UHGV virus genome: UHGV-1507218
Strand: one strand, 5' to 3'
Length of the DNA: 35,190 nucleotides
DNA from: a virus
Shown: piece after piece, positions 6,738-30,490 of the stretch
Layout of the letters: the number at the start of each line of letters is the position of its first letter
Numbering within the stretch: position 1 is the first letter of the stretch
Translations under genes and position numbers: made by a program
The notes under the pieces: generated by a model
The model's database searches: none
What the model saw: only the letters and a program-made list of their open reading frames with translations
Told to the model about the DNA's origin: nothing

Positions 6738-9632
6738 TTATTTCATCCCCGGATCAACTTGGTTAATCAACGGTGCAATCCAGAACAGGTTATTACCTGG
6801 CAATAACGTACGCACACTATGCAATACACGATCGCCGGCGTCGCCATTCAGTACACCAGCGGTCACATCGGTAACGGTATCCAGCAGGCCGAAAGTCGGC
6901 CCCAGTGCAGAGCCGATAAAGCCACGGCTAGCGTATCGTGATTGCGTCCCTGTTCCAAGCAACGGCCCAAGCCCAAGCATACCACCGGATGCTTTTTCTG
7001 CCATGTTGTTATATTCCATCAGCGGGCCAAGGATACCAGAACGGTCTATGCCCTCGAGCACCATCTTCTGCGGCGTCAAATCCACCTCCCGGCCATTAGC
7101 CGCCTGCTTAAGCGCATAGGTCAATGAGCCAAGACCAATCTGGAAGGCGGTACCGTAATAAAATTGCGCGGTACCTTCCTGCAGGCCGCCGAGCGTCGCA
7201 CGGTTATAGGATGCCGTTGCAAAAGACTTAAACTGGAATACGGTTTTCCCTAGCGGGGTACTGGCCCACAGCGGCGTATCACCGATCCCCGGCGTGATAA
7301 CGGTATTGTTTACATCCTTCAGCACAGCAGATTGCAGCAGGCCAGCGGCGTACTGGTCATCCCATTTTTCGAAATTGCCGATATGCCAGCCCTGAATAAC
7401 TTCGCCGTGCTTCTGAAATTCTCGCTGTATGCGTTCGGCCATCTTCTCATTGATACCGAGTTTTGCCAGGCGCTTCGCAGGGAACGCGCCGGACAGAATA
7501 CCGTCGGACGTGATCATGCCATTCACCGATTTGTTCATATCGTCAAAGTGGCCCATCATGGTCAGCTTGCCGAACACATCGGTAATACGTTCCATGCCAG
7601 CTTCTGCAGCTGTCGTACGCGAAGAGCTATCGACCAGATCCCCCATCGTACGCGCGCGGGTATGCAGTATGGTTTCAAGCCCCACGGCCATTTTCTTCTG
7701 CTCCGCCCGGCTGGCGAGGTAAGCCGGCGAGCGGGTGATCAGCGCGCCATATCCACGCATGGTATTGCTGAAGCCGTTAACCATCATGCCGCGCGCCAGA
7801 TCCGGGATAGCGGATACCGTCATGCCGCCGAGTTTCGTTACAAAGTTGGCGCTACGCAGGAAAGCACCGGCGCGAACGAAAAATGATGATGGGTCATCTG
7901 GCATACCGTAGGTACCGACGAGGCGATCGCGAAGCGCCAGAATATCGCGCAGGTCGGCTTCACGTGCTTTCGCCAGTTTTTCCTGTTCCGCCGGGCGTAA
8001 ACGCATTAGCGCGTCGTACTCGTCCTGGATGGCGGCGAGCTGCGAATCCAGCGACTTGTTGCCAAAGGTGCGGGTTAATTCGATTTCTGCCGAGGCTTCG
8101 CGGATATGACGCTGCAGGACGTAGTTAGCGTCGCTCTCCAGATAATCTTTCATCAGGCGATCGGGAACGCTCAACGTACGCGATTTAGTGCTGCCCGGCG
8201 CTTTCACCATAAAGACGTTGGCGAACTCCTGTGGAATTTTGGCCCCGACAATACGGTTAATCGTGGTATCGGCAGCGATTTCTGCATCTTCGCGAGACAT
8301 GGTTTTCTCACCGCGTGACCACCAGTCAACCAGCATATTGCGGAATTTATCGCGCTCGCTAACGATTTTCCCTACCTTGTACACGCGAGGGAAATAGCTG
8401 GTCTGTCCCATCGCTTTCAGTTCGGCATCCGGCGGAAGTAAGCCCAGTTCCTGCTGTGCCGTCTTCACACGATTGATGACCGTACGCATTGCCTGTGCCG
8501 CTTCCTGCACTTTCGCATTAACGTGCACGTCGCCGTTGCGCAGTGCCTCGCCAACCTGTTCACGGAAGGCCGTATAACCCATATCGCCGCCTTCAGCTTT
8601 GTACTGGGTGTATGCCTGCTTATTCGCAGTAACGACGGCCGCCTCTTCGCGGCGCCAGCCACGTACGCGCGTCTCAGCCGCAACCGGTGTTTCAATACCG
8701 CGCAGGTTGCCTTCCAGCGTGAAGTTATTCTCTGCCAGTTCCAGAGCTGTCCGGCGCGCTTCTTTTGATGGGGATTCCATCAGGCGGGTGATCGGCGTCA
8801 GATAGCTACCGGCTTTTTTAGCCAGCTTGCCGAGTGGGCCGCCAGACACTGGCGTGAGATCTTCCAGTGTAGCTTCGCGAATACGCATAGCACCGACGCT
8901 GCCACCGTTTGGTAAAGTATCCGCCAGGGCATCGGCAGCGTTGTTAATCGTTGGCGAGGCGTTCATATTATCGAGCGCCTCCGCCACTTCACGGGTGGCC
9001 GCATTTCTTACCGATGGGGTGATCATCGCACCAGCGGTAGCAAATACACCGCTGAGAAGAGCGCCGGCGGTAATGTGTGCGGCGCTCTCCCTTGCTGTTC
9101 TGGTGTACTGCTCATTATTGAGCGCTACCTCACTGAGCGCGGTACCGGCGGCACCAATAGCAACCTGAGAACCAATACGCGCAGCCAGGCTTCCCTGCGC
9201 ACCGGGGATAAACATCGATGCGACTGTGACGGGGTCGATAACCCCGGCGGCTATACTGGCTAAAGTTCCTTCAGCACCTGCTTCAGACAGCACCCGGCGG
9301 TCTTCGTTTTCATCGTCTATCTGGTTTTTAATCCAGGCGGTTTCCTCTGGGGATTTTGAATCCGCAAAGGCGGATCCCCATTGTTCGTAACCCTTTATTT
9401 CGTTTTTATCAGAATAAGGGTTATACCCCTCCGCTGGCTCGAATTGTTTAGCCGGGCGGAACATCCCGGCGAGCAGGTTATTCTGACGAAAAGCGGCATC
9501 CCATACAGACGGTTGTTGCTGCTGTGGCTCCGGGTTAGTTCCTTCAGGCAGAGATACATCAAAACCAGTTGGTGCCTGAAGAGCATTATCCATTACGCTC
9601 GGCGGAACATCAGATTGCGGATAGATAGGCAT
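6738..9632 (-). CDS. Internal virion (core/ejection) protein, large (T7 gp15/gp16-like)
   Basis: 964-aa Ala/Gly-rich protein sitting in the T7 order between the tail tube and terminase genes; start/stop overlap with the upstream core gene. Confidence 0.5.
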   Translation of the reverse strand: MPIYPQSDVPPSVMDNALQAPTGFDVSLPEGTNPEPQQQQPSVWDAAFRQNNLLAGMFRPAKQFEPAEGYNPYSDKNEIKGYEQWGSAFADSKSPEETAWIKNQIDDENEDRRVLSEAGAEGTLASIAAGVIDPVTVASMFIPGAQGSLAARIGSQVAIGAAGTALSEVALNNEQYTRTARESAAHITAGALLSGVFATAGAMITPSVRNAATREVAEALDNMNASPTINNAADALADTLPNGGSVGAMRIREATLEDLTPVSGGPLGKLAKKAGSYLTPITRLMESPSKEARRTALELAENNFTLEGNLRGIETPVAAETRVRGWRREEAAVVTANKQAYTQYKAEGGDMGYTAFREQVGEALRNGDVHVNAKVQEAAQAMRTVINRVKTAQQELGLLPPDAELKAMGQTSYFPRVYKVGKIVSERDKFRNMLVDWWSRGEKTMSREDAEIAADTTINRIVGAKIPQEFANVFMVKAPGSTKSRTLSVPDRLMKDYLESDANYVLQRHIREASAEIELTRTFGNKSLDSQLAAIQDEYDALMRLRPAEQEKLAKAREADLRDILALRDRLVGTYGMPDDPSSFFVRAGAFLRSANFVTKLGGMTVSAIPDLARGMMVNGFSNTMRGYGALITRSPAYLASRAEQKKMAVGLETILHTRARTMGDLVDSSSRTTAAEAGMERITDVFGKLTMMGHFDDMNKSVNGMITSDGILSGAFPAKRLAKLGINEKMAERIQREFQKHGEVIQGWHIGNFEKWDDQYAAGLLQSAVLKDVNNTVITPGIGDTPLWASTPLGKTVFQFKSFATASYNRATLGGLQEGTAQFYYGTAFQIGLGSLTYALKQAANGREVDLTPQKMVLEGIDRSGILGPLMEYNNMAEKASGGMLGLGPLLGTGTQSRYASRGFIGSALGPTFGLLDTVTDVTAGVLNGDAGDRVLHSVRTLLPGNNLFWIAPLINQVDPGMK

Positions 9633-21384: not shown

Positions 21385-21702
21385 TTAAATTCTGCATAAG
21401 CGTAATTCCTTTACCTCGTTAGTGACCTGTTCGAGTAATTCAGTCTCCGTTCCGTAGTTTTCTTCCCATGATTTTTGACCTGCATGGATAGCTACGCCGT
21501 GTCCGCCGGTTCTATGGTGTGGCGGGCAAAGCGGGAGTGTTTTTTTATGGTCGGCGCGCTGGGCTATGCCCTGCCCTTTGCGGATATGGTGAACTTCTGC
21601 AGGTGTAGCGCCGTAGCCAATATTTCTGCATACGACGCAACCCAGTGATGCAACGTCTTCCAGCCAGCGTTTATCGTCTTTGGTCATGGCAATGTTTCTC
21701 AC
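21385..21702 (-). CDS. YbcO-like nin-region Zn-binding protein (DUF1364)
   Basis: CVVCRNIGYG...EVHHIRKG...CPPHH resembles E. coli DLP12 YbcO. Confidence 0.45.
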   Translation of the reverse strand: MRNIAMTKDDKRWLEDVASLGCVVCRNIGYGATPAEVHHIRKGQGIAQRADHKKTLPLCPPHHRTGGHGVAIHAGQKSWEENYGTETELLEQVTNEVKELRLCRI

Positions 21703-22295
21703 GCGGCATAGCTGAATAATTGCGAAGCTGCGTTTTCTGCTGCCTGCTGTGTTGGGAAAGTGCGGAATAAAATAAAATTCCAGAGGACGTCTAATACGGA
21801 TTTATACAGCTGGGAAAATTCTACATCGTCCATTTTTGCGAACGATATGGACTTGGGTTCTTTGCGGGTAGTGCCATCAGGCATCTGGTATTCGGTATAA
21901 AAACCGGCTTCGATAGTTACCCAGGAACGGAACGCTTCAAACGATTTTACCGCGCTGATATTCCCGGCGCGTTTTTCTGCTTCATCGCGGAGATACTGAT
22001 CCGCTAGTTCCTGCAAAGTATCGGCATGCCCGGCATAGTGGGCCACCAGCTGCACATAGCCGTGTACCAATTTTTTATCGGCTGGCGATATTGCACCGCC
22101 GGACGGTTGCCAGTAATCAAAGCCCAGATTCAGTAGGGCAAAAAATTTACGGTGGAATGCCGGGTTTCTTGCCTGCTTAAAATCCGCATACAAAATACCG
22201 CCCATACGGACTTTTTTTTCTAAAAATTCGCGGGCGTCAGGCGTCGCCGGAATTAATACATTGCCTGGTGCTTTTACAAAAGAATACTGCGCCAT
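21699..22295 (-). CDS. NinB/Orf-like recombination mediator family protein (extended)
   Basis: KQARNPAFHRKFFALLNLGFDYW resembles lambda Orf RNRSLDQNRKLWACLGDV. Confidence 0.35.
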   Translation of the reverse strand: MAQYSFVKAPGNVLIPATPDAREFLEKKVRMGGILYADFKQARNPAFHRKFFALLNLGFDYWQPSGGAISPADKKLVHGYVQLVAHYAGHADTLQELADQYLRDEAEKRAGNISAVKSFEAFRSWVTIEAGFYTEYQMPDGTTRKEPKSISFAKMDDVEFSQLYKSVLDVLWNFILFRTFPTQQAAENAASQLFSYAA

Positions 22296-22363
22296 TGGGT
22301 TCCCCTTTAGCGCAGCAATTGCTCAGAAATACAGTGTGTTGGGTGTTCAAGCCAACGTGATAA

Positions 22364-22555
22364 TTATAGCACAGTCCCGTCTGGTTTTATAATGGTGTAA
22401 CCAGACAATTTAGCTAATTCAAACAACGCATTAAGTGTTGCGACATGTTCGTCGGGCTTTACGTCGCGGAGCTTTCTTGCCTTACCACTTTTGCACCTTA
22501 TCAGGACGTCGCCATCATCGGGGAGAAGGACTCCTGCATCGTTCTTATCAACCAC
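22364..22555 (-). CDS. Small SOS-controlled protein, candidate antirepressor (non-ATG start, GTG at 22555 or TTG at 22573)
   Basis: Only ORF downstream of the LexA-box promoter; it has no in-frame ATG and no family assignment. Confidence 0.4.
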   Translation of the reverse strand: MVDKNDAGVLLPDDGDVLIRCKSGKARKLRDVKPDEHVATLNALFELAKLSGYTIIKPDGTVL

Positions 22556-22579
22556 AACTCCTAAACCCCCCAATAACTA

Positions 22580-22599
22580 TACTGTATAAATTCACAGTA
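22580..22599. promoter_or_regulatory. LexA (SOS) box TACTGTATAAATTCACAGTA
   Basis: CTGT-N8-ACAG with 17/20 matches to TACTGTATATATATACAGTA. Confidence 0.75.
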
Positions 22600-22628
22600 T
22601 ATATACTCCCATCCGTTACTAATCGCAA
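22600..22628 (-). promoter_or_regulatory. Sigma70 promoter TTGCGA-17-TATATA with the LexA box over the start site
   Basis: Minus strand reads TTGCGA ttagtaacggatgggag TATATA then the SOS box. Confidence 0.65.
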
Positions 22629-22689
22629 ACTTTTAAAGGCACAAAACGTTAAATTTTCAAGTTAACTGATTGTTTATCTATCTGTATTA

Positions 22690-22714
22690 AAAAGAAAACC
22701 GCCATTTCTGGCGG
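22690..22714 (-). terminator. Rho-independent terminator after the 112-aa gene
   Basis: Minus strand CCGCCAGAAATGGCGG followed by TTTTCTTTT. Confidence 0.6.
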
Positions 22715-22741
22715 CCTCCACGGTTCTGGTATGGTTGAACG

Positions 22742-23080
22742 TCACACAGTAAGTTTCGTCTCATGCCACCCATAAGTAACCCAGCACTGCGAATCACCGG
22801 CGCAGGGGCAACTGGTGATCGGTAACGGATCGCCGCACTTTCCACATAACCGTTTACTGATGGATTTAATACGGCTGCTCACTCGCGCGTCATCCTGGCG
22901 GATCAGCAACGCAATATACTCAGCTGCATCGTAGGGATCTCGACCGGGACGACGTGCGGCACAGTTGCGCGCCAGCATTTCCCGTTCCTGAGCATCGAGA
23001 ACCAGCTCAATTTTGCGGTTGCCGGCGGCAGACTGCCGCGCGCGCTGCGCGGCTTTACGTTCTGCGGATGATTTAGCCAT
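22742..23080 (-). CDS. Hypothetical protein with a C-terminal Cys-rich zinc ribbon
   Basis: CGKCGDPLPITSCPCAGDSQC; basic N-terminus. Confidence 0.4.
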   Translation of the reverse strand: MAKSSAERKAAQRARQSAAGNRKIELVLDAQEREMLARNCAARRPGRDPYDAAEYIALLIRQDDARVSSRIKSISKRLCGKCGDPLPITSCPCAGDSQCWVTYGWHETKLTV

Positions 23081-28238: not shown

Positions 28239-28685
28239 TTAAACGCTGGTCAGGCGCTGTGTTTCTCGCATCGCTTGCAATGCCTTCGCTACTTGCTGCG
28301 GGCCGTCTCTGGCCTCGAGCAATAACGCGATAATGGCCGCCGCAAATTCGCGTATGGCCACGCAGATCAAATACTGGGTGGACATGTCCAGGCGCGCGTA
28401 GCGTTCTGCCGGCAGTGCCGCTTCCATCGCTTTAGCCAGCGTCTGGGTTTTAGTTCTGGCCGCTTTCGTCTCACCACGCAGCCAGCGAAAAATCTGTTGG
28501 CGGTTGTTGTTGATGGCCCGCCAGTCTGCATTTCCGTCTGCATCTTCAATCTGGTGCAGCTTCAGCACGCCAGTGTTACCACAGAGACGAAACCACATAC
28601 GGCTTATCTCGATAGCAACCAGCTCCTGCCCGCTTTCAGCTGCCCAGCTAAATATCTCTCGTTTCAGTTCCTCGAGGTTCTCCAC
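28239..28685 (-). CDS. ydaT: YdaT-like protein (Rac prophage toxin-like / CII-like regulator family)
   Basis: QQIFRWLRGETK matches the YdaT signature RWLKGET; position after the cro-like gene as in Rac. Confidence 0.55.
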   Translation of the reverse strand: MENLEELKREIFSWAAESGQELVAIEISRMWFRLCGNTGVLKLHQIEDADGNADWRAINNNRQQIFRWLRGETKAARTKTQTLAKAMEAALPAERYARLDMSTQYLICVAIREFAAAIIALLLEARDGPQQVAKALQAMRETQRLTSV

Positions 28686-28745: not shown

Positions 28746-28979
28746 TTAAGCTGCATCCTGTTCTGGTAACCCATCAGTGGGTTTCCGGTAAATGTTTGGG
28801 AGCAAATCGTGCGGGGTGACTTGGTATCCAGTTGCTGCAGCCCACTTCAACGCAGTTGCAGCACCGAGCAAACATTTACCAGTCGAGACGCGGCTTACAT
28901 AACCCTGAGACTCGCCGACAAGTTGAGCAAAGTCCTGTTGCCGTACGCCCGAGGTTTTTAGATAGGTTTTGAGATCCAT
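28746..28979 (-). CDS. Cro/YdaS-like XRE-family HTH regulator
   Basis: QQDFAQLVGESQGYVSRV HTH, divergent from the repressor, AGGAGG RBS. Confidence 0.7.
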   Translation of the reverse strand: MDLKTYLKTSGVRQQDFAQLVGESQGYVSRVSTGKCLLGAATALKWAAATGYQVTPHDLLPNIYRKPTDGLPEQDAA

Positions 28980-29079: not shown

Positions 29080-29544
29080 ATGTGCGCCATGAGAAAGAAA
29101 ACGCTTGATGCAGCTGAGGCTGACGCAGCACAAAGGCTGCGAGAAATATGGAACGAGAAAAAAGTAACTTTACGTCTTACTCAAGAAAAGGCGGCGGATG
29201 CTCTCGGCTTTAGTACACAAGCGACAATAAGCCAGTACCTAAACGGCAGCATCCCACTAAATACGGATGCAACACTTAAATTTTCAGCCCTTCTTGGTGT
29301 TAAGCCAGAAGATATACGGCCGGATCTTGCCGAACTGATGAACTTCATTCGTAAAACCGACAGCCACGTTCAAGATTATTCCGCTGCTGGTTGGCGTTTA
29401 CTAAAACCAGAAGAGTCGGAGCTAATAGAACTTTATGAAAGATTACCGCAAAGTGAAAAAGAAAGGCATCTATCTGAATTAAAAGAGAAAGTAAGTGGAT
29501 TTGATCGCCTTTTTGAAGAACTTTTAGCGACCCGTAAGCAGTAA
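29080..29544 (+). CDS. racR: Prophage repressor, RacR-like (HTH only, no S24 peptidase domain)
   Basis: N-terminal XRE HTH LTQEKAADALGFSTQATISQYLNG similar to lambda cI / P22 C2 DNA-binding domains; only 154 aa, with no Ala-Gly cleavage site and no Ser/Lys peptidase domain. Confidence 0.65.
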   Translation: MCAMRKKTLDAAEADAAQRLREIWNEKKVTLRLTQEKAADALGFSTQATISQYLNGSIPLNTDATLKFSALLGVKPEDIRPDLAELMNFIRKTDSHVQDYSAAGWRLLKPEESELIELYERLPQSEKERHLSELKEKVSGFDRLFEELLATRKQ

Positions 29545-29560
29545 ACCCTACCTCCCAACT

Positions 29561-29586
29561 AATCCCGCATAGCCGGGATTTTTTTA
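29561..29586 (+). terminator. Rho-independent terminator after the repressor gene
   Basis: ATCCCG catagc CGGGAT followed by TTTTTTT. Confidence 0.6.
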
Positions 29587-29639
29587 TCCTTTTTAATCAA
29601 CACCATACAAAAAATATTCGCAATACGATTATTTTTGGC

Positions 29640-29668
29640 TTGACCTTAAATATACGCATAACTAATAT
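29640..29668 (+). promoter_or_regulatory. Early-left sigma70 promoter TTGACC-17-TAATAT
   Basis: Near-consensus hexamers with a 17-nt spacer. Confidence 0.6.
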
Positions 29669-29818
29669 CACCAACATCAACGACGCACTAACCACGCGGC
29701 AGTTGTTCAGAAACAGTTCTGACAGTCCGGAAAGACGGGCAAGAATTCTTCGGGTCGCCGACAGTACGATGACATGCGGGAAAGACCGCAACGAATGCGA
29801 ATTGCTGTGTGTAGTCTT

Positions 29819-29846
29819 GGCCCCGGCGCCCGGGGCATTTTTTTCA
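29819..29846 (+). terminator. Rho-independent terminator / attenuator inside the early-left leader
   Basis: GCCCCGG cgc CCGGGGC followed by ATTTTTTT. Confidence 0.6.
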
Positions 29847-29885
29847 CATAGTAGCGATTTATGCGACCCTTCAGTGAAAACTGAA

Positions 29886-29903
29886 GCCCTCGAAAAGAGG
29901 GGC
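29886..29903 (+). promoter_or_regulatory. boxB-like RNA hairpin (5-bp stem, GAAAA pentaloop)
   Basis: CCCTC GAAAA GAGGG compared with lambda boxB GCCCU GAAAA AGGGC. Confidence 0.35.
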
Positions 29904-30109
29904 CCCGTGAGGAAAGACCGTAGAGCCTGACCAGCTCTGACACCGGGAAAGACCGGGAGGAAAGACCAACGGGATTGACCACCCTGACAGCCGGGAAAGA
30001 CCGGCAACCTTTAGATAGCAAAAGGCCCGCACAAGGCGGGCCAGTTACCCCGAACGGTGACCAAACCATTCGGATTTTTGCCGGGAACCACCCCGGCTAG
30101 GAAAGACCA

Positions 30110-30133
30110 ATGCAGGCCAGAGCCACACACTGA
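30110..30133 (+). CDS. 7-codon upstream ORF (MQARATH) on the conserved RBS motif
   Basis: TAGGAAAGACCAATG then six codons and TGA, 34 nt upstream of the first early-left gene. Confidence 0.3.
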   Translation: MQARATH

Positions 30134-30166
30134 TCGGCTCTGAGTATACAACACTAAGGAGCCGCT

Positions 30167-30490
30167 ATGGAAGCGCTTACCATCCCCGTAACTATCTACG
30201 TTATGGCAACAACCAATCCATATCTACCAACGTCTTATCACTCATTCACCTGTGACATGTCACAGAAATATCCTGATTCGTACGTGCTTGTTACTACCAA
30301 AACGGTAGAGATTGCCATTCCTGCTTTAGAGCCTATCGATATTATCGGGATGCAGGTTAATGCCCTTCGCGCGAAGAAAGAGCAAATATCTGCTGATGCC
30401 AACAAACAGTTAAGCGTTATTGAAGACCAGATCCAGCAGCTGCTGTGCATCGACCACTCTCCGATTGAAGAAAGCGACGTCCCTTTTTGA
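30167..30490 (+). CDS. Hypothetical protein, first gene of the early-left operon
   Basis: AAGGAG RBS, 107 aa, no family assignment. Confidence 0.45.
   Translation: MEALTIPVTIYVMATTNPYLPTSYHSFTCDMSQKYPDSYVLVTTKTVEIAIPALEPIDIIGMQVNALRAKKEQISADANKQLSVIEDQIQQLLCIDHSPIEESDVPF

What the first reader, a model, noticed from the sequence alone, without database searches (positions are those of the whole stretch)
22555..22640. SOS box over a near-consensus promoter driving a small gene, in a phage whose repressor lacks a cleavage domain: candidate LexA-controlled antirepressor
TACTGTATAAATTCACAGTA (22580-22599) matches the LexA consensus at 17/20 positions with perfect CTGT/ACAG. It sits immediately downstream of the -10 of TTGCGA-17-TATATA (minus strand), the classic architecture of SOS-repressed promoters. 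The only downstream ORF is a roughly 63-69 aa protein with a non-ATG start. The prophage repressor (29080-29544) is 154 aa with no S24 peptidase domain, so SOS induction cannot proceed by RecA-mediated autocleavage. In Gifsy-type phages and coliphage 186, induction proceeds via LexA-repressed antirepressors (GfoA-type, Tum). The small protein has no recognisable family.
Basis: partly seen in the sequence, partly recalled or inferred. Interest (0 to 1): 0.7.

Follow-up and report, generated by a model that had tools for sequence, protein, structure and literature searches.

The report
SOS-controlled small antirepressor of a prophage
A LexA (SOS) operator sits on the promoter of a 63-residue gene that belongs to the known GfoA/Rem family of small antirepressors, so this Klebsiella-type prophage most likely senses DNA damage as the Salmonella Gifsy phages do; it is a new member of a known kind.

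Summary
TACTGTATAAATTCACAGTA lies at 22580-22599 and is the only site in the window within 3 mismatches of the LexA consensus (0 of 100 shuffles). It abuts a minus-strand promoter, TTGCGA-17-TATATA. That promoter is conserved but only moderate (8 of 12 positions), not near-consensus.

The gene behind it is a 63-aa ORF with a GTG start (22364-22555, minus strand), under purifying selection (dN/dS 0.06-0.23).

It matches phrog_340 (E 9e-17), which also holds E. coli Qin Rem, a proven DicA antirepressor, and the SEN34 orthologue of Gifsy-1 GfoA, a proven LexA-controlled antirepressor.

The layout (terminator, promoter, LexA box, small non-ATG ORF, DUF1367/irsA) matches the Gifsy induction module, minus dinI.

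64 of 65 viral contigs with a homologue keep a perfect CTGT-N8-ACAG 15-24 nt upstream of the start codon.

The 154-aa repressor has an HTH domain and no Peptidase_S24 match. It shares the conserved C-terminal module of DicA and is homologous to Gifsy-2 GtgR.

This is a new member of a known kind, and no experiment has tested it.

The parts
22684..22719 (-). Rho-independent terminator-like hairpin with a T-run. It closes the upstream early gene (22742-23080) and insulates the SOS promoter from read-through.
   Evidence: 11-bp stem at 22719-22694, followed by TTTTCTTTTT. In 41 of 60 distinct homologous upstream contexts a hairpin (dG <= -8 kcal/mol) with a T-run lies within 200 nt upstream of the box, in most of them about 95 nt upstream. 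The Gifsy LexA boxes are likewise preceded by terminator-like palindromes (PMC3121763).
22623..22628 (-). -35 hexamer TTGCGA
   Evidence: TTGCG[AC] with a 17-nt spacer occurs in most of 38 distinct homologous upstream regions. Column identity is 0.89 in alignment A3.
22600..22605 (-). -10 hexamer TATATA (4/6 to consensus; relatives have TATATA or TATAAA)
   Evidence: The consensus scanner did not call it.
22580..22599 (.). LexA operator (SOS box) TACTGTATAAATTCACAGTA. It starts directly after the -10 hexamer and so covers the expected transcription start.
   Evidence: unique in the window, 0/100 shuffles. The CTGT/ACAG core is 100% conserved in 12 distinct Klebsiella/Raoultella upstream sequences, whose flanks are 39-70% identical. 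It is present in 64 of 65 IMG/VR homologue loci at 15-24 nt from the start codon, against a background of 9 sites per 255,822 nt. It is also present upstream of homologues only 36-40% identical, in an E. coli phage and in E. whittamii.
22556..22579 (-). 5' leader with purine-rich ribosome-binding stretch (GGGGGG...AGGAG)
   Evidence: A purine-rich stretch is conserved ahead of the GTG.
22364..22555 (-). Rem/GfoA-family small antirepressor candidate, 63 aa, GTG start
   Evidence: phrog_340 at E 9.2e-17. Rem hits the same family at 4.4e-21 and the SEN34 GfoA orthologue at 6.2e-21. hhalign of the family profile against the GfoA orthologue gives probability 96%, E 4.9e-9. dN/dS is 0.06-0.23. The GTG start is conserved. 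The AlphaFold2 model has pLDDT 86, with a beta-hairpin and a helix.
22338..22371 (-). Conserved spacer element ahead of the DUF1367 gene. It comprises an extended -10-like TGCTATAAT (22371-22363, overlapping the stop codon) and a 5-bp stem with a 9-nt loop, GTTGG-CTTGAACAC-CCAAC (22356-22338).
   Evidence: All cells are paired, 3 of 5 pairs show compensatory changes, and 0 of 500 shuffles reach the observed score. The motif is found once in each of 23 of the first 27 loci, including Gifsy-2, SEN34 and ZF40. Its function is unknown.
21699..22295 (-). DUF1367 / irsA-like (NinB/Orf-like) gene, the next gene of the same transcription unit
   Evidence: PF07105 at E 3.3e-84 and phrog_319. It is 55.8% identical to Gifsy-2 STM1020, the gene that follows gftA. 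No terminator was found between it and the small ORF.
21385..21702 (-). DUF968 / RecA-dependent-nuclease (Ref-like) gene, next downstream
   Evidence: PF16786 at E 9.9e-15.
29080..29544 (+). Prophage repressor of the DicA/GtgR type: N-terminal HTH, conserved C-terminal module, no Peptidase_S24. It is the predicted target of the antirepressor.
   Evidence: only HTH_3/HTH_31; the DicA subfamily model matches residues 108-154; 47% identity to the DicA C-terminus, E 5e-13; the C-terminal module is shared by heteroimmune repressors; hhalign against Gifsy-2 GtgR gives probability 98%, E 1.3e-13.
28746..28979 (-). Cro-like gene, divergent from the repressor. It marks the immunity region about 6.5 kb from the antirepressor module.
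   Evidence: HTH_3, phrog_35. A YdaT/CII-like gene at 28239-28685 follows.

Best explanation
The 22555-22640 region is the control region of an SOS-inducible induction module of the Gifsy type.

In the lysogen, host LexA binds the operator at 22580-22599. The operator begins directly after the -10 hexamer and covers the transcription start of a moderate sigma-70 promoter (TTGCGA-17-TATATA, minus strand). An upstream terminator (22719-22684) shields the unit from read-through.

After DNA damage, RecA* triggers LexA autocleavage. The promoter then fires and a 63-aa protein is made from a weak GTG start (22555-22364). This protein is a member of the GfoA/Rem family of small antirepressors. It binds the prophage's DicA/GtgR-type repressor (29080-29544), which has no autocleavage domain, and takes it off its operators, so the early operons switch on.

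Transcription probably continues into the DUF1367/irsA-like and Ref-like genes.

Shown here:
- the sequence elements themselves;
- their conservation;
- purifying selection on the ORF;
- family membership of the small protein and of the repressor;
- synteny with the Gifsy module.

Inferred from homology and published work on relatives:
- LexA binding;
- SOS induction;
- the protein-protein interaction;
- derepression.

My further inference is that the antirepressor targets the conserved C-terminal module of the repressor.
For: (1) The box is unique in the window and beyond chance.

(2) It is retained in 64 of 65 IMG/VR homologue loci (41 distinct upstream sequences) at 15-24 nt from the start codon. 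The background is 9 sites per 255,822 nt. The core is invariant while flanks and synonymous sites are near saturation. It is also present upstream of homologues only 36-40% identical in Escherichia.

(3) The small ORF is phrog_340 at E 9e-17. Rem is phrog_340 at 4e-21. Rem derepresses DicA-controlled dicBp 165-fold (PMC10448788).

(4) SEN34_55 matches the published gfoA forward primer 17/17 and the reverse primer at 20 of 22 positions (mismatches at the last two), and it lies between dinI and irsA behind a LexA box. It is phrog_340 at 6e-21. It aligns to the window family profile with probability 96%, E 4.9e-9. GfoA and GftA are LexA-controlled antirepressors that bind their repressors (PMC3121763).

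(5) The layout is the same as in Gifsy-2: terminator, LexA box, (dinI), GUG-start small ORF, STM1020/DUF1367.

(6) The repressor has an HTH and no S24, a DicA C-terminal module, and homology to GtgR. All 11 related loci whose flank reaches the immunity region carry this repressor type.

(7) dN/dS is 0.06-0.23 and the GTG start is conserved.

(8) No other antirepressor-like gene turned up among the early-region ORFs scanned.

(9) The Rem-like domain also occurs at the C-terminus of proteins with P22 antirepressor N-terminal, KilA-N or Rha domains.
Against: - No experimental datum exists for this phage or for any Klebsiella homologue.
- The promoter is only 8/12 to consensus and the scanner did not call it.
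- Direct similarity to K-12 Rem is weak: hhalign probability 61%, E 8e-5. Membership rests on a shared profile family and on the GfoA orthologue.
- GftA itself falls in another PHROG (phrog_4847), with only a marginal cross-hit.
- Qin and Rac-SA53 rem have no LexA box, so LexA control is not universal in the family.
- One identical antirepressor allele occurs next to three different repressor types. This could mean broad specificity, or it could mean the target is not the repressor.
- No terminator separates the ORF from DUF1367/Ref-like genes, so the promoter may serve them too.
Confidence: 0.8

Rival explanations
1. The LexA-controlled promoter exists mainly to express DNA-transaction genes during SOS: the DUF1367 NinB/Orf-like protein and the Ref-like RecA-dependent nuclease. 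On this reading the small protein is an accessory factor, for example a RecA/SOS modulator in the position that DinI holds in Gifsy phages, and not the inducer.
For: No terminator was found between the small ORF and the DUF1367 and DUF968/RecA_dep_nuc genes. In Gifsy phages the LexA operon also carries dinI and irsA. A RecA-dependent nuclease under SOS control would make biological sense.
Against: The small ORF is homologous to proven antirepressors. It has no match to DinI or to any other Pfam family. Non-polar deletions of dinI or irsA had no effect on Gifsy induction, whereas the small ORF alone was sufficient (PMC3121763). The DUF1367 gene has its own conserved extended -10-like element. 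The LexA box tracks the small ORF even where upstream context is replaced.
Confidence: 0.08
2. The small protein is an antirepressor, but it acts mainly in trans on other DicA-type prophages in the same cell, as Fels-1 FsoA acts on Gifsy-2. This prophage's own induction would then go by another route.
For: An identical allele (P0027) sits in prophages with 128-, 133- and 151-aa repressors. Cross-talk is documented for GfoA/GfhA and FsoA.
Against: The repressor here has no cleavage domain. No ImmA-like protease or second antirepressor was found among the early ORFs scanned. All co-resident repressors share the conserved C-terminal module that is the likely target, so the cognate repressor should be hit as well.
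Confidence: 0.08
3. The SOS-box-like palindrome is a chance or decayed sequence without LexA function, and the promoter is constitutive or silent.
For: The promoter is weak by consensus. Some family members (Qin and Rac-SA53 rem) lack a box, and one relative (L020) has a degenerate box.
Against: 0 of 100 shuffles produced a match. The box is retained in 64 of 65 homologue loci at a fixed distance. The core is invariant against diverged flanks. The position is the same as in the experimentally validated Gifsy module.
Confidence: 0.02

Closest known systems
GfoA / GfhA of Salmonella Gifsy-1 / Gifsy-3 (Lemire et al. 2011, PMC3121763)
   Same: It is a small protein with a non-ATG start, encoded outside the immunity region directly upstream of the irsA/DUF1367 gene. 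It lies behind a terminator and a LexA box. The partner repressor is a short HTH protein without a cleavage site. The profile family is the same: the SEN34 GfoA orthologue is phrog_340, and hhalign to the window family gives probability 96%.
   Different: There is no dinI gene between the LexA box and the antirepressor here; the box is 24 nt from the start codon. About 25% identity to the GfoA orthologue over 55 aligned columns. The host is of Klebsiella/Raoultella type, and the virion module has a T7-like portal (PF12236 Head-tail_con) and BPP-1-type genes (Bbp19, Bbp16 in relatives), unlike the Gifsy genome. There is no experimental test.
Rem of E. coli K-12 cryptic prophage Qin (Ragunathan et al. 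2023, PMC10448788)
   Same: The PHROG is the same (phrog_340), as is Pfam's newer PF27490 'Rem' for close relatives. The partner repressor shares DicA's C-terminal module at 47% identity. In Rac-SA53 the annotated rem sits next to irsA, as here.
   Different: [quoted passage not shown] Rem is 83 aa with an insertion. The window gene keeps the SOS operator and sits in a prophage that keeps integrase, replication and virion genes.
GftA of Gifsy-2 (and FsoA of Fels-1)
   Same: It has the same genomic slot (dinI-gftA-STM1020), a GUG start and LexA control, and the function of the module is the same.
   Different: The profile family is different (phrog_4847), with only marginal cross-hits to phrog_340 (E 0.23). 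FsoA is controlled by the Fels-1 repressor, not by LexA.
Tum of coliphage 186 and AntC of N15 (LexA-controlled antirepressors; cited in PMC3121763)
   Same: The logic is the same: a LexA-repressed gene whose product binds a non-cleavable repressor.
   Different: Tum is 146 aa and has a DinI-like half. The window protein is 63 aa with no DinI or other Pfam match. No sequence comparison with Tum or AntC was run here.
Large Ant-type antirepressors (P22_AR_N, KilA-N, Rha N-terminal domains)
   Same: A Rem-like domain forms the C-terminus of such proteins (P0079, P0067, P0082). There are weak hits to the C-terminal parts of PHROG 'anti-repressor' families 4792 and 2379.
   Different: The window protein consists of the Rem-like domain alone.

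Membership tests
GfoA/Rem small antirepressor family (phrog_340; Pfam PF27490 'Rem') | Significant profile match to the family that contains Rem | tested here: met
   The window ORF hits phrog_340 at E 9.2e-17 and K-12 Rem hits it at E 4.4e-21. Rac-SA53 'rem' hits at 2.4e-15. hhalign of A1 against Rem gives E 8e-5, probability 61%.
GfoA/Rem small antirepressor family (phrog_340; Pfam PF27490 'Rem') | Homology to GfoA, the experimentally defined LexA-controlled member | tested here: met
   The GfoA sequence itself was not available. SEN34_55 matches the published gfoA forward primer 17/17 and the reverse primer at 20 of 22 positions, the last two mismatching. It is phrog_340 at 6.2e-21. hhalign of A6 against it gives probability 96%, E 4.9e-9 over 55 columns.
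GfoA/Rem small antirepressor family (phrog_340; Pfam PF27490 'Rem') | Pfam PF27490 at gathering threshold | tested here: inconclusive
   The local Pfam copy gave no hit for the ORF or its relatives. Precomputed PF27490 hits exist only for relatives (P0023, P0024, P0032-34) and are marked faint.
GfoA/Rem small antirepressor family (phrog_340; Pfam PF27490 'Rem') | Small size (about 55-85 aa), translated, often with a non-ATG start | tested here: met
   63 aa with a conserved GTG. dN/dS is 0.06-0.23. GftA starts with GUG and the SEN34 GfoA orthologue with TTG.
GfoA/Rem small antirepressor family (phrog_340; Pfam PF27490 'Rem') | Encoded outside the immunity region, next to irsA/DUF1367 | tested here: met
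   It lies 6.5 kb from the repressor and 68 nt upstream of the DUF1367 gene. The neighbour is the same in Gifsy-2, SEN34, Rac-SA53 and 705R4.
GfoA/Rem small antirepressor family (phrog_340; Pfam PF27490 'Rem') | Binds the cognate repressor and releases it from DNA | not testable with these tools
No solved or predicted structural relative was found.
SOS regulon (LexA-repressed promoter, Enterobacterales type) | CTGT-N8-ACAG operator with close match to TACTGTATATATATACAGTA | tested here: met
   17/20 with a perfect core. It is the only such site in the window, and no match appeared in 100 shuffles.
SOS regulon (LexA-repressed promoter, Enterobacterales type) | Operator overlaps the promoter or transcription start of the regulated gene | tested here: met
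   The box starts at the base after the -10 hexamer of TTGCGA-17-TATATA. The promoter is inferred from conservation; there is no transcription start data.
SOS regulon (LexA-repressed promoter, Enterobacterales type) | Operator conserved upstream of orthologues | tested here: met
   64 of 65 IMG/VR loci. 13 of 14 loci in A3 (12 distinct sequences after dropping L020 and one duplicate), with a 100% conserved core. Distant Escherichia homologues also have it.
SOS regulon (LexA-repressed promoter, Enterobacterales type) | LexA binding and DNA-damage inducibility | not testable with these tools
   This needs EMSA or footprinting and expression assays in lexA(Ind-).
DicA / GfoR / GtgR family of non-cleavable prophage repressors (the 154-aa protein) | Short HTH repressor lacking the Peptidase_S24 autocleavage domain | tested here: met
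   The only Pfam hits are HTH_3/HTH_31, at residues 27-79.
DicA / GfoR / GtgR family of non-cleavable prophage repressors (the 154-aa protein) | Sequence homology to DicA and to a Gifsy repressor | tested here: met
   BLASTP against DicA gives 47% identity over 47 aa, E 5e-13. NCBIfam DicA model NF007257 scores 55 bits on residues 108-154, below its 101-bit cut-off, so the protein is a relative and not a DicA equivalog. Profile A4 against Gifsy-2 GtgR gives probability 98%, E 1.3e-13.
Tum (phage 186) type antirepressor | About 146 aa with a DinI-like C-terminal half | tested here: not met
   The protein is 63 aa and has no DinI or other Pfam domain. It works like Tum but is not a member.

The most novel reading that the evidence does not exclude
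The Rem-like fold may be a portable repressor-binding module that recognises the conserved C-terminal segment (LPxSEKERHL...F(N/D)(R/K)LFxELL) shared by otherwise heteroimmune DicA-type repressors. One SOS-controlled allele would then act as a master key that fires several co-resident Klebsiella/Raoultella prophages at once. The same module would have been fused to P22-Ant, KilA-N and Rha domains to build the large antirepressors.

Observations consistent with this:
- An identical antirepressor allele sits next to 128-, 133- and 151-aa repressors.
- The C-terminal module is conserved while the HTH domains are only 32-40% identical.
- Domain fusions exist.

Not tested: which repressor domain is bound.
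Probability: 0.35. Interest if true: 0.5.

Novelty: new member of a known kind. Interest (0 to 1): 0.3.

Why it matters
It extends the Gifsy-type induction route (LexA, then a small antirepressor, then a non-cleavable repressor) to a widespread group of Klebsiella/Raoultella prophages. It also ties together two lines of published work. The GfoA-type antirepressors are LexA-controlled. Rem of Qin has no known signal. Both belong to one profile family, and almost every prophage homologue collected here keeps the SOS operator, whereas the rem copies in Qin and Rac-SA53 have none.

Practically, phrog_340 (annotated 'unknown function') and many 'hypothetical protein' calls could be annotated. SOS-inducing antibiotics would be predicted to induce these Klebsiella prophages through this 63-aa protein. 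The shared repressor C-terminal module predicts cross-induction in polylysogens.

The mechanism is not a new kind.

Tried and rejected
1. Pfam and NCBIfam on the small ORF gave no hit. The local Pfam copy appears to lack PF27490.
2. A PDB sequence search with the family profile found nothing below E 0.38.
3. Foldseek of the pLDDT-86 model found nothing significant against PDB (best E 1.3) or BFVD (best E 0.18, an uncharacterised protein).
5. A single-sequence AlphaFold model of the repressor had pLDDT 45 and was unusable.
6. PADLOC gave only a marginal hit (E 0.0067) for the small ORF. A defence-system reading was rejected.
7. Rfam found no family in the window. The two sub-threshold hits near the locus (preQ1-II, BjrC1505) were rejected as chance.
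8. The RNA fold of the spacer as a whole was not more stable than shuffles (z = 0.33). Only the short covarying hairpin stands.
9. The genome-contig scan gave only 3 loci, one of them a spurious Flavobacteriaceae hit.
10. The second CTGT-N8-ACAG in the window (30250-30265) was considered as a second LexA site and rejected. Its centre is GC-rich, it lies inside a conserved ORF, and it is part of a different palindrome, TGTGACATGTCACA.
11. An alternative -10 (TATACT) overlapping the box was rejected because the spacer would be 21 nt.
12. A literature search found no Klebsiella-specific study of this module.
Full report
**Observation.** The window carries TACTGTATAAATTCACAGTA at 22580-22599. This matches the Enterobacterales LexA consensus at 17 of 20 positions, with perfect CTGT and ACAG arms. 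It is the only site in 35,190 bases within three mismatches of the consensus, and none of 100 dinucleotide-preserving shuffles produced a match. The looser pattern CTGT-N8-ACAG has one further match, at 30250-30265. That match is not a credible LexA site.

On the minus strand, the box is preceded by TTGCGA (22628-22623), a 17-nt spacer and TATATA (22605-22600). Each hexamer matches the sigma-70 consensus at 4 of 6 positions, so 'near-consensus' overstates it, and the consensus scanner did not report a promoter. The same scan found a strong terminator-like hairpin with a T-run at 22719-22684 on the minus strand. It lies just upstream of the -35 hexamer and just downstream of the preceding gene (22742-23080).

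**The gene behind the box.** The mechanical ORF is 22364-22573 (69 aa, TTG start).
- Forty database relatives were found, mostly from Klebsiella and Raoultella. Those annotated by NCBI are 63 aa and begin MVDK/MIDK.
- In DNA alignments the GTG at 22555 is conserved and preceded by a purine-rich stretch. The product is therefore 63 aa, from 22555 to 22364.
- Pairwise dN/dS between the window gene and seven relatives is 0.06-0.23, with synonymous sites near saturation. The ORF is therefore translated and under purifying selection.
- A family alignment gives an AlphaFold2 model with mean pLDDT 86, showing a beta-hairpin (residues 17-31) followed by a helix (41-50).
- The model has no significant match in PDB or BFVD, and no family member has a solved structure.

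**Family.** Pfam and NCBIfam give nothing, but the ORF matches phrog_340 at E 9.2e-17.
- E. coli K-12 Rem, taken from the Qin prophage, matches the same family at E 4.4e-21. The gene annotated 'rem' in phage Rac-SA53 matches at 2.4e-15.
- Rem is an experimentally shown antirepressor of DicA. It gave 165-fold derepression of dicBp, and it was found by iterated searches that started from GfoA (PMC10448788).
- The public pre-computed annotation names Pfam PF27490 'Rem' for several close relatives, but only as faint hits.
I therefore used the cloning primers in Lemire et al.. The gftA primers match Gifsy-2 STM1020.1n.
- The gfoA forward primer matches Salmonella phage SEN34 exactly at L023:1213-1229, and the reverse primer matches at 20 of 22 positions, the last two mismatching. 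SEN34_55, with a TTG start 15 nt upstream of the annotated one, is therefore a GfoA orthologue.
- SEN34_55 is phrog_340 at E 6.2e-21. It aligns to a 41-sequence profile of the window's family, which contains neither Rem nor GfoA, with probability 96% and E 4.9e-9 over 55 columns.
- GftA belongs to a different PHROG (4847), with marginal cross-hits.
- A profile search of 1.84 billion representatives found only 57 clusters at E <= 0.001. These include proteins in which the Rem-like domain forms the C-terminus behind P22 antirepressor N-terminal, KilA-N or Rha domains.

**Context.** In Gifsy-2 the order is terminator, LexA box (TACTGTGTTTATATACAGTG), dinI, gftA (GUG start), STM1020. Lemire et al. 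describe this as a LexA-controlled operon of dinI, the antirepressor and irsA, and found the antirepressor alone sufficient for induction.
- STM1020 is 55.8% identical to the window's DUF1367 gene at 21699-22295. That gene starts 68 nt after the small ORF.
- The window therefore has the same cassette without dinI.
- A DUF968/RecA-dependent-nuclease gene follows. No terminator was found between the three genes.

**Conservation of the operator.**
- Thirteen of 14 Klebsiella/Raoultella loci keep the box. After dropping L020 and one duplicate row, 12 distinct sequences remain; in these the CTGT/ACAG core is 100% conserved and the whole 20-mer 89%. The leader is 64% identical, the 60 nt upstream of the -35 hexamer 63%, and the region further upstream 39%.
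- The exception, L020, has a degenerate box and an altered N-terminus.
- Homologues only 36-40% identical, in E. coli phage 705R4 and in E. whittamii, also carry a box about 20 nt from the start codon.
- In IMG/VR, 64 of 65 homologue loci (41 distinct 75-nt upstream sequences) have a perfect CTGT-N8-ACAG 15-24 nt from the start codon. Elsewhere in the same loci there are 9 such sites in 255,822 nt. Many of these phages are close relatives, so the count is not 64 independent events.
- TTGCG[AC]-17-TATA[TA]A is kept in most of 38 distinct contexts. A terminator-like hairpin precedes the box in 41 of 60 distinct contexts.
- Qin rem and Rac-SA53 rem have no box. [quoted passage not shown]

**The repressor.**
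- The protein at 29080-29544 has only an HTH_3/HTH_31 match, with no Peptidase_S24.
- Residues 108-154 match the C-terminus of the NCBIfam DicA model and of DicA itself (47% identity, E 5e-13).
- Repressors of related prophages have HTH domains only 32-40% identical to this one. All share the C-terminal segment LPxSEKERHL...F(N/D)(R/K)LFxELL, as does DicA. All 11 related loci whose flank reaches the immunity region have it.
- A profile of these repressors aligns to Gifsy-2 GtgR with probability 98%, E 1.3e-13.
- The identical antirepressor allele P0027 lies in prophages with 128-, 133- and 151-aa repressors. This is reminiscent of GfoA acting on the heteroimmune GfoR and GfhR.
- I infer, without a test, that the conserved C-terminal module is the target.
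- No other antirepressor-like gene and no ImmA-like protease was seen among the early-region ORFs scanned.

**Mechanism.** In the most likely model, LexA holds the promoter off in the lysogen. DNA damage removes LexA. The 63-aa GfoA/Rem-family protein is then made from a weak start codon, binds the DicA/GtgR-type repressor and releases it from its operators, and the lytic programme starts.

The steps shown here are the sequence elements, their conservation, the coding constraint, both family memberships and the synteny. LexA binding, inducibility, protein-protein binding and derepression are inferred from the Gifsy and Qin experiments.

The rivals are less likely:
- The promoter mainly serves the DUF1367 and Ref-like genes.
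- The protein acts only in trans on other prophages.
- The box arose by chance.

**Comparison and novelty.** This is a new member of a known kind.
- It differs from the Gifsy prototype in lacking dinI, in its host group and in its virion module. The virion module has a T7-like portal (PF12236 Head-tail_con), and relatives carry BPP-1-type genes (Bbp19, Bbp16).
- It differs from Qin Rem in keeping the SOS operator.
- It works like Tum of phage 186 but is not a member of that family.
- No paper in the searchable library describes the module in Klebsiella. Lemire et al. already noted gfoR/gtgR homologues and the dinI-irsA region in Klebsiella.

**Side observations.**
- The 68-nt spacer before the DUF1367 gene holds an extended -10-like TGCTATAAT and a short hairpin with an invariant loop and compensatory stem changes. 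It is conserved from Klebsiella phages to Gifsy-2, SEN34 and ZF40.
- A 14-bp palindrome, TGTGACATGTCACA, recurs in several phages.

Noticed in passing
window 22338-22371 (minus strand); also L004:2427-2475, L023:1433-1481, L026:1427-1475, L002:2342-2390: The spacer between the small ORF and the DUF1367/irsA gene holds an extended -10-like TGCTATAAT that overlaps the stop codon. It also holds a 5-bp stem with a 9-nt loop (GTTGG-CTTGAACAC-CCAAC). The loop core TGAACA is invariant, and the stem shows compensatory changes (GTTGG/CCAAC, ACTGG/CCAGT, AACGG/CCGTT, ATCGG/CCGAT, and GCTGG/CCGGC with a G-U pair). All cells are paired and 0 of 500 shuffles reach the observed score. The motif occurs once in each of 23 of the first 27 loci, including phages without a Rem-like ORF (ZF40). 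There is no Rfam match and its function is unknown.
   Followed up: partly
window 30250-30265 (inside ORF 30167-30490): A perfect palindrome, CTGTGACATGTCACAG, fits CTGT-N8-ACAG but has a GC-rich centre. Its 14-bp core TGTGACATGTCACA recurs in relatives with different repressor types. It is also intergenic in Pectobacterium phage ZF40, just upstream of the DUF1367 promoter region, and occurs in IMG/VR locus L085. It may be the binding site of an unidentified regulator. It is not immunity-specific.
   Followed up: partly
window 21385-21702 (minus strand): A DUF968/RecA-dependent-nuclease (Ref-like) gene lies two genes downstream of the LexA-controlled promoter with no terminator detected in between. 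A RecA-dependent nuclease may therefore be co-expressed with the SOS response.
   Followed up: no
L001 (OM816834.1, 'Stenotrophomonas phage vB_SmeS_BUCT708') and OM816835.1: Two phages deposited as Stenotrophomonas phages carry a protein 98.5% identical to the full 69-aa ORF, and identical over the 63-aa product. They also have the LexA box and the DUF1367/DUF968 genes. All other close relatives are from Klebsiella/Raoultella, so the host assignment looks odd. In these records the DNA upstream of the promoter is replaced by divergently oriented RloB-domain and ATP-binding genes.
   Followed up: no
L012, L013, L016; alignment A4: One identical antirepressor allele (P0027) is found in prophages with 133-, 128- and 151-aa repressors. 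Their HTH domains differ, but their C-terminal roughly 45 residues are conserved and shared with E. coli DicA.
   Followed up: partly
L020:8665-8684 and 8717-8920: This is a decayed copy of the module. The LexA box is degenerate (TACTGTATGCGCAGCCAGTG), the promoter is rearranged and the N-terminus of the small ORF is replaced, while the rest of the prophage is syntenic.
   Followed up: no
P0067, P0079, P0082, P0071, P0083, P0089: The Rem-like domain also occurs as the C-terminal domain of proteins with KilA-N, P22_AR_N or Rha N-terminal domains. It also occurs as two tandem copies in some 120-240-aa proteins.
   Followed up: partly
window 29545-30166: A gap of about 620 nt with no convincing ORF lies between the repressor gene and the first gene of the leftward-arm operon. 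It contains a GC-rich palindrome at 29818-29837.
   Followed up: no
window 22742-23080 (minus strand): The gene just upstream of the terminator is a 112-aa phrog_536 'transcriptional regulator' with a Cys-rich C-terminus. A homologous gene sits in the same place in several relatives, and in ZF40 (gp22) directly upstream of the DUF1367 gene.
   Followed up: no
L023:1209-1457 (Salmonella phage SEN34): The annotated start of SEN34_55 is probably 15 nt too far downstream. The published gfoA forward primer places the start at a TTG at 1209. The PLoS Genetics text says these ORFs start with 'UGG'.
   Followed up: yes
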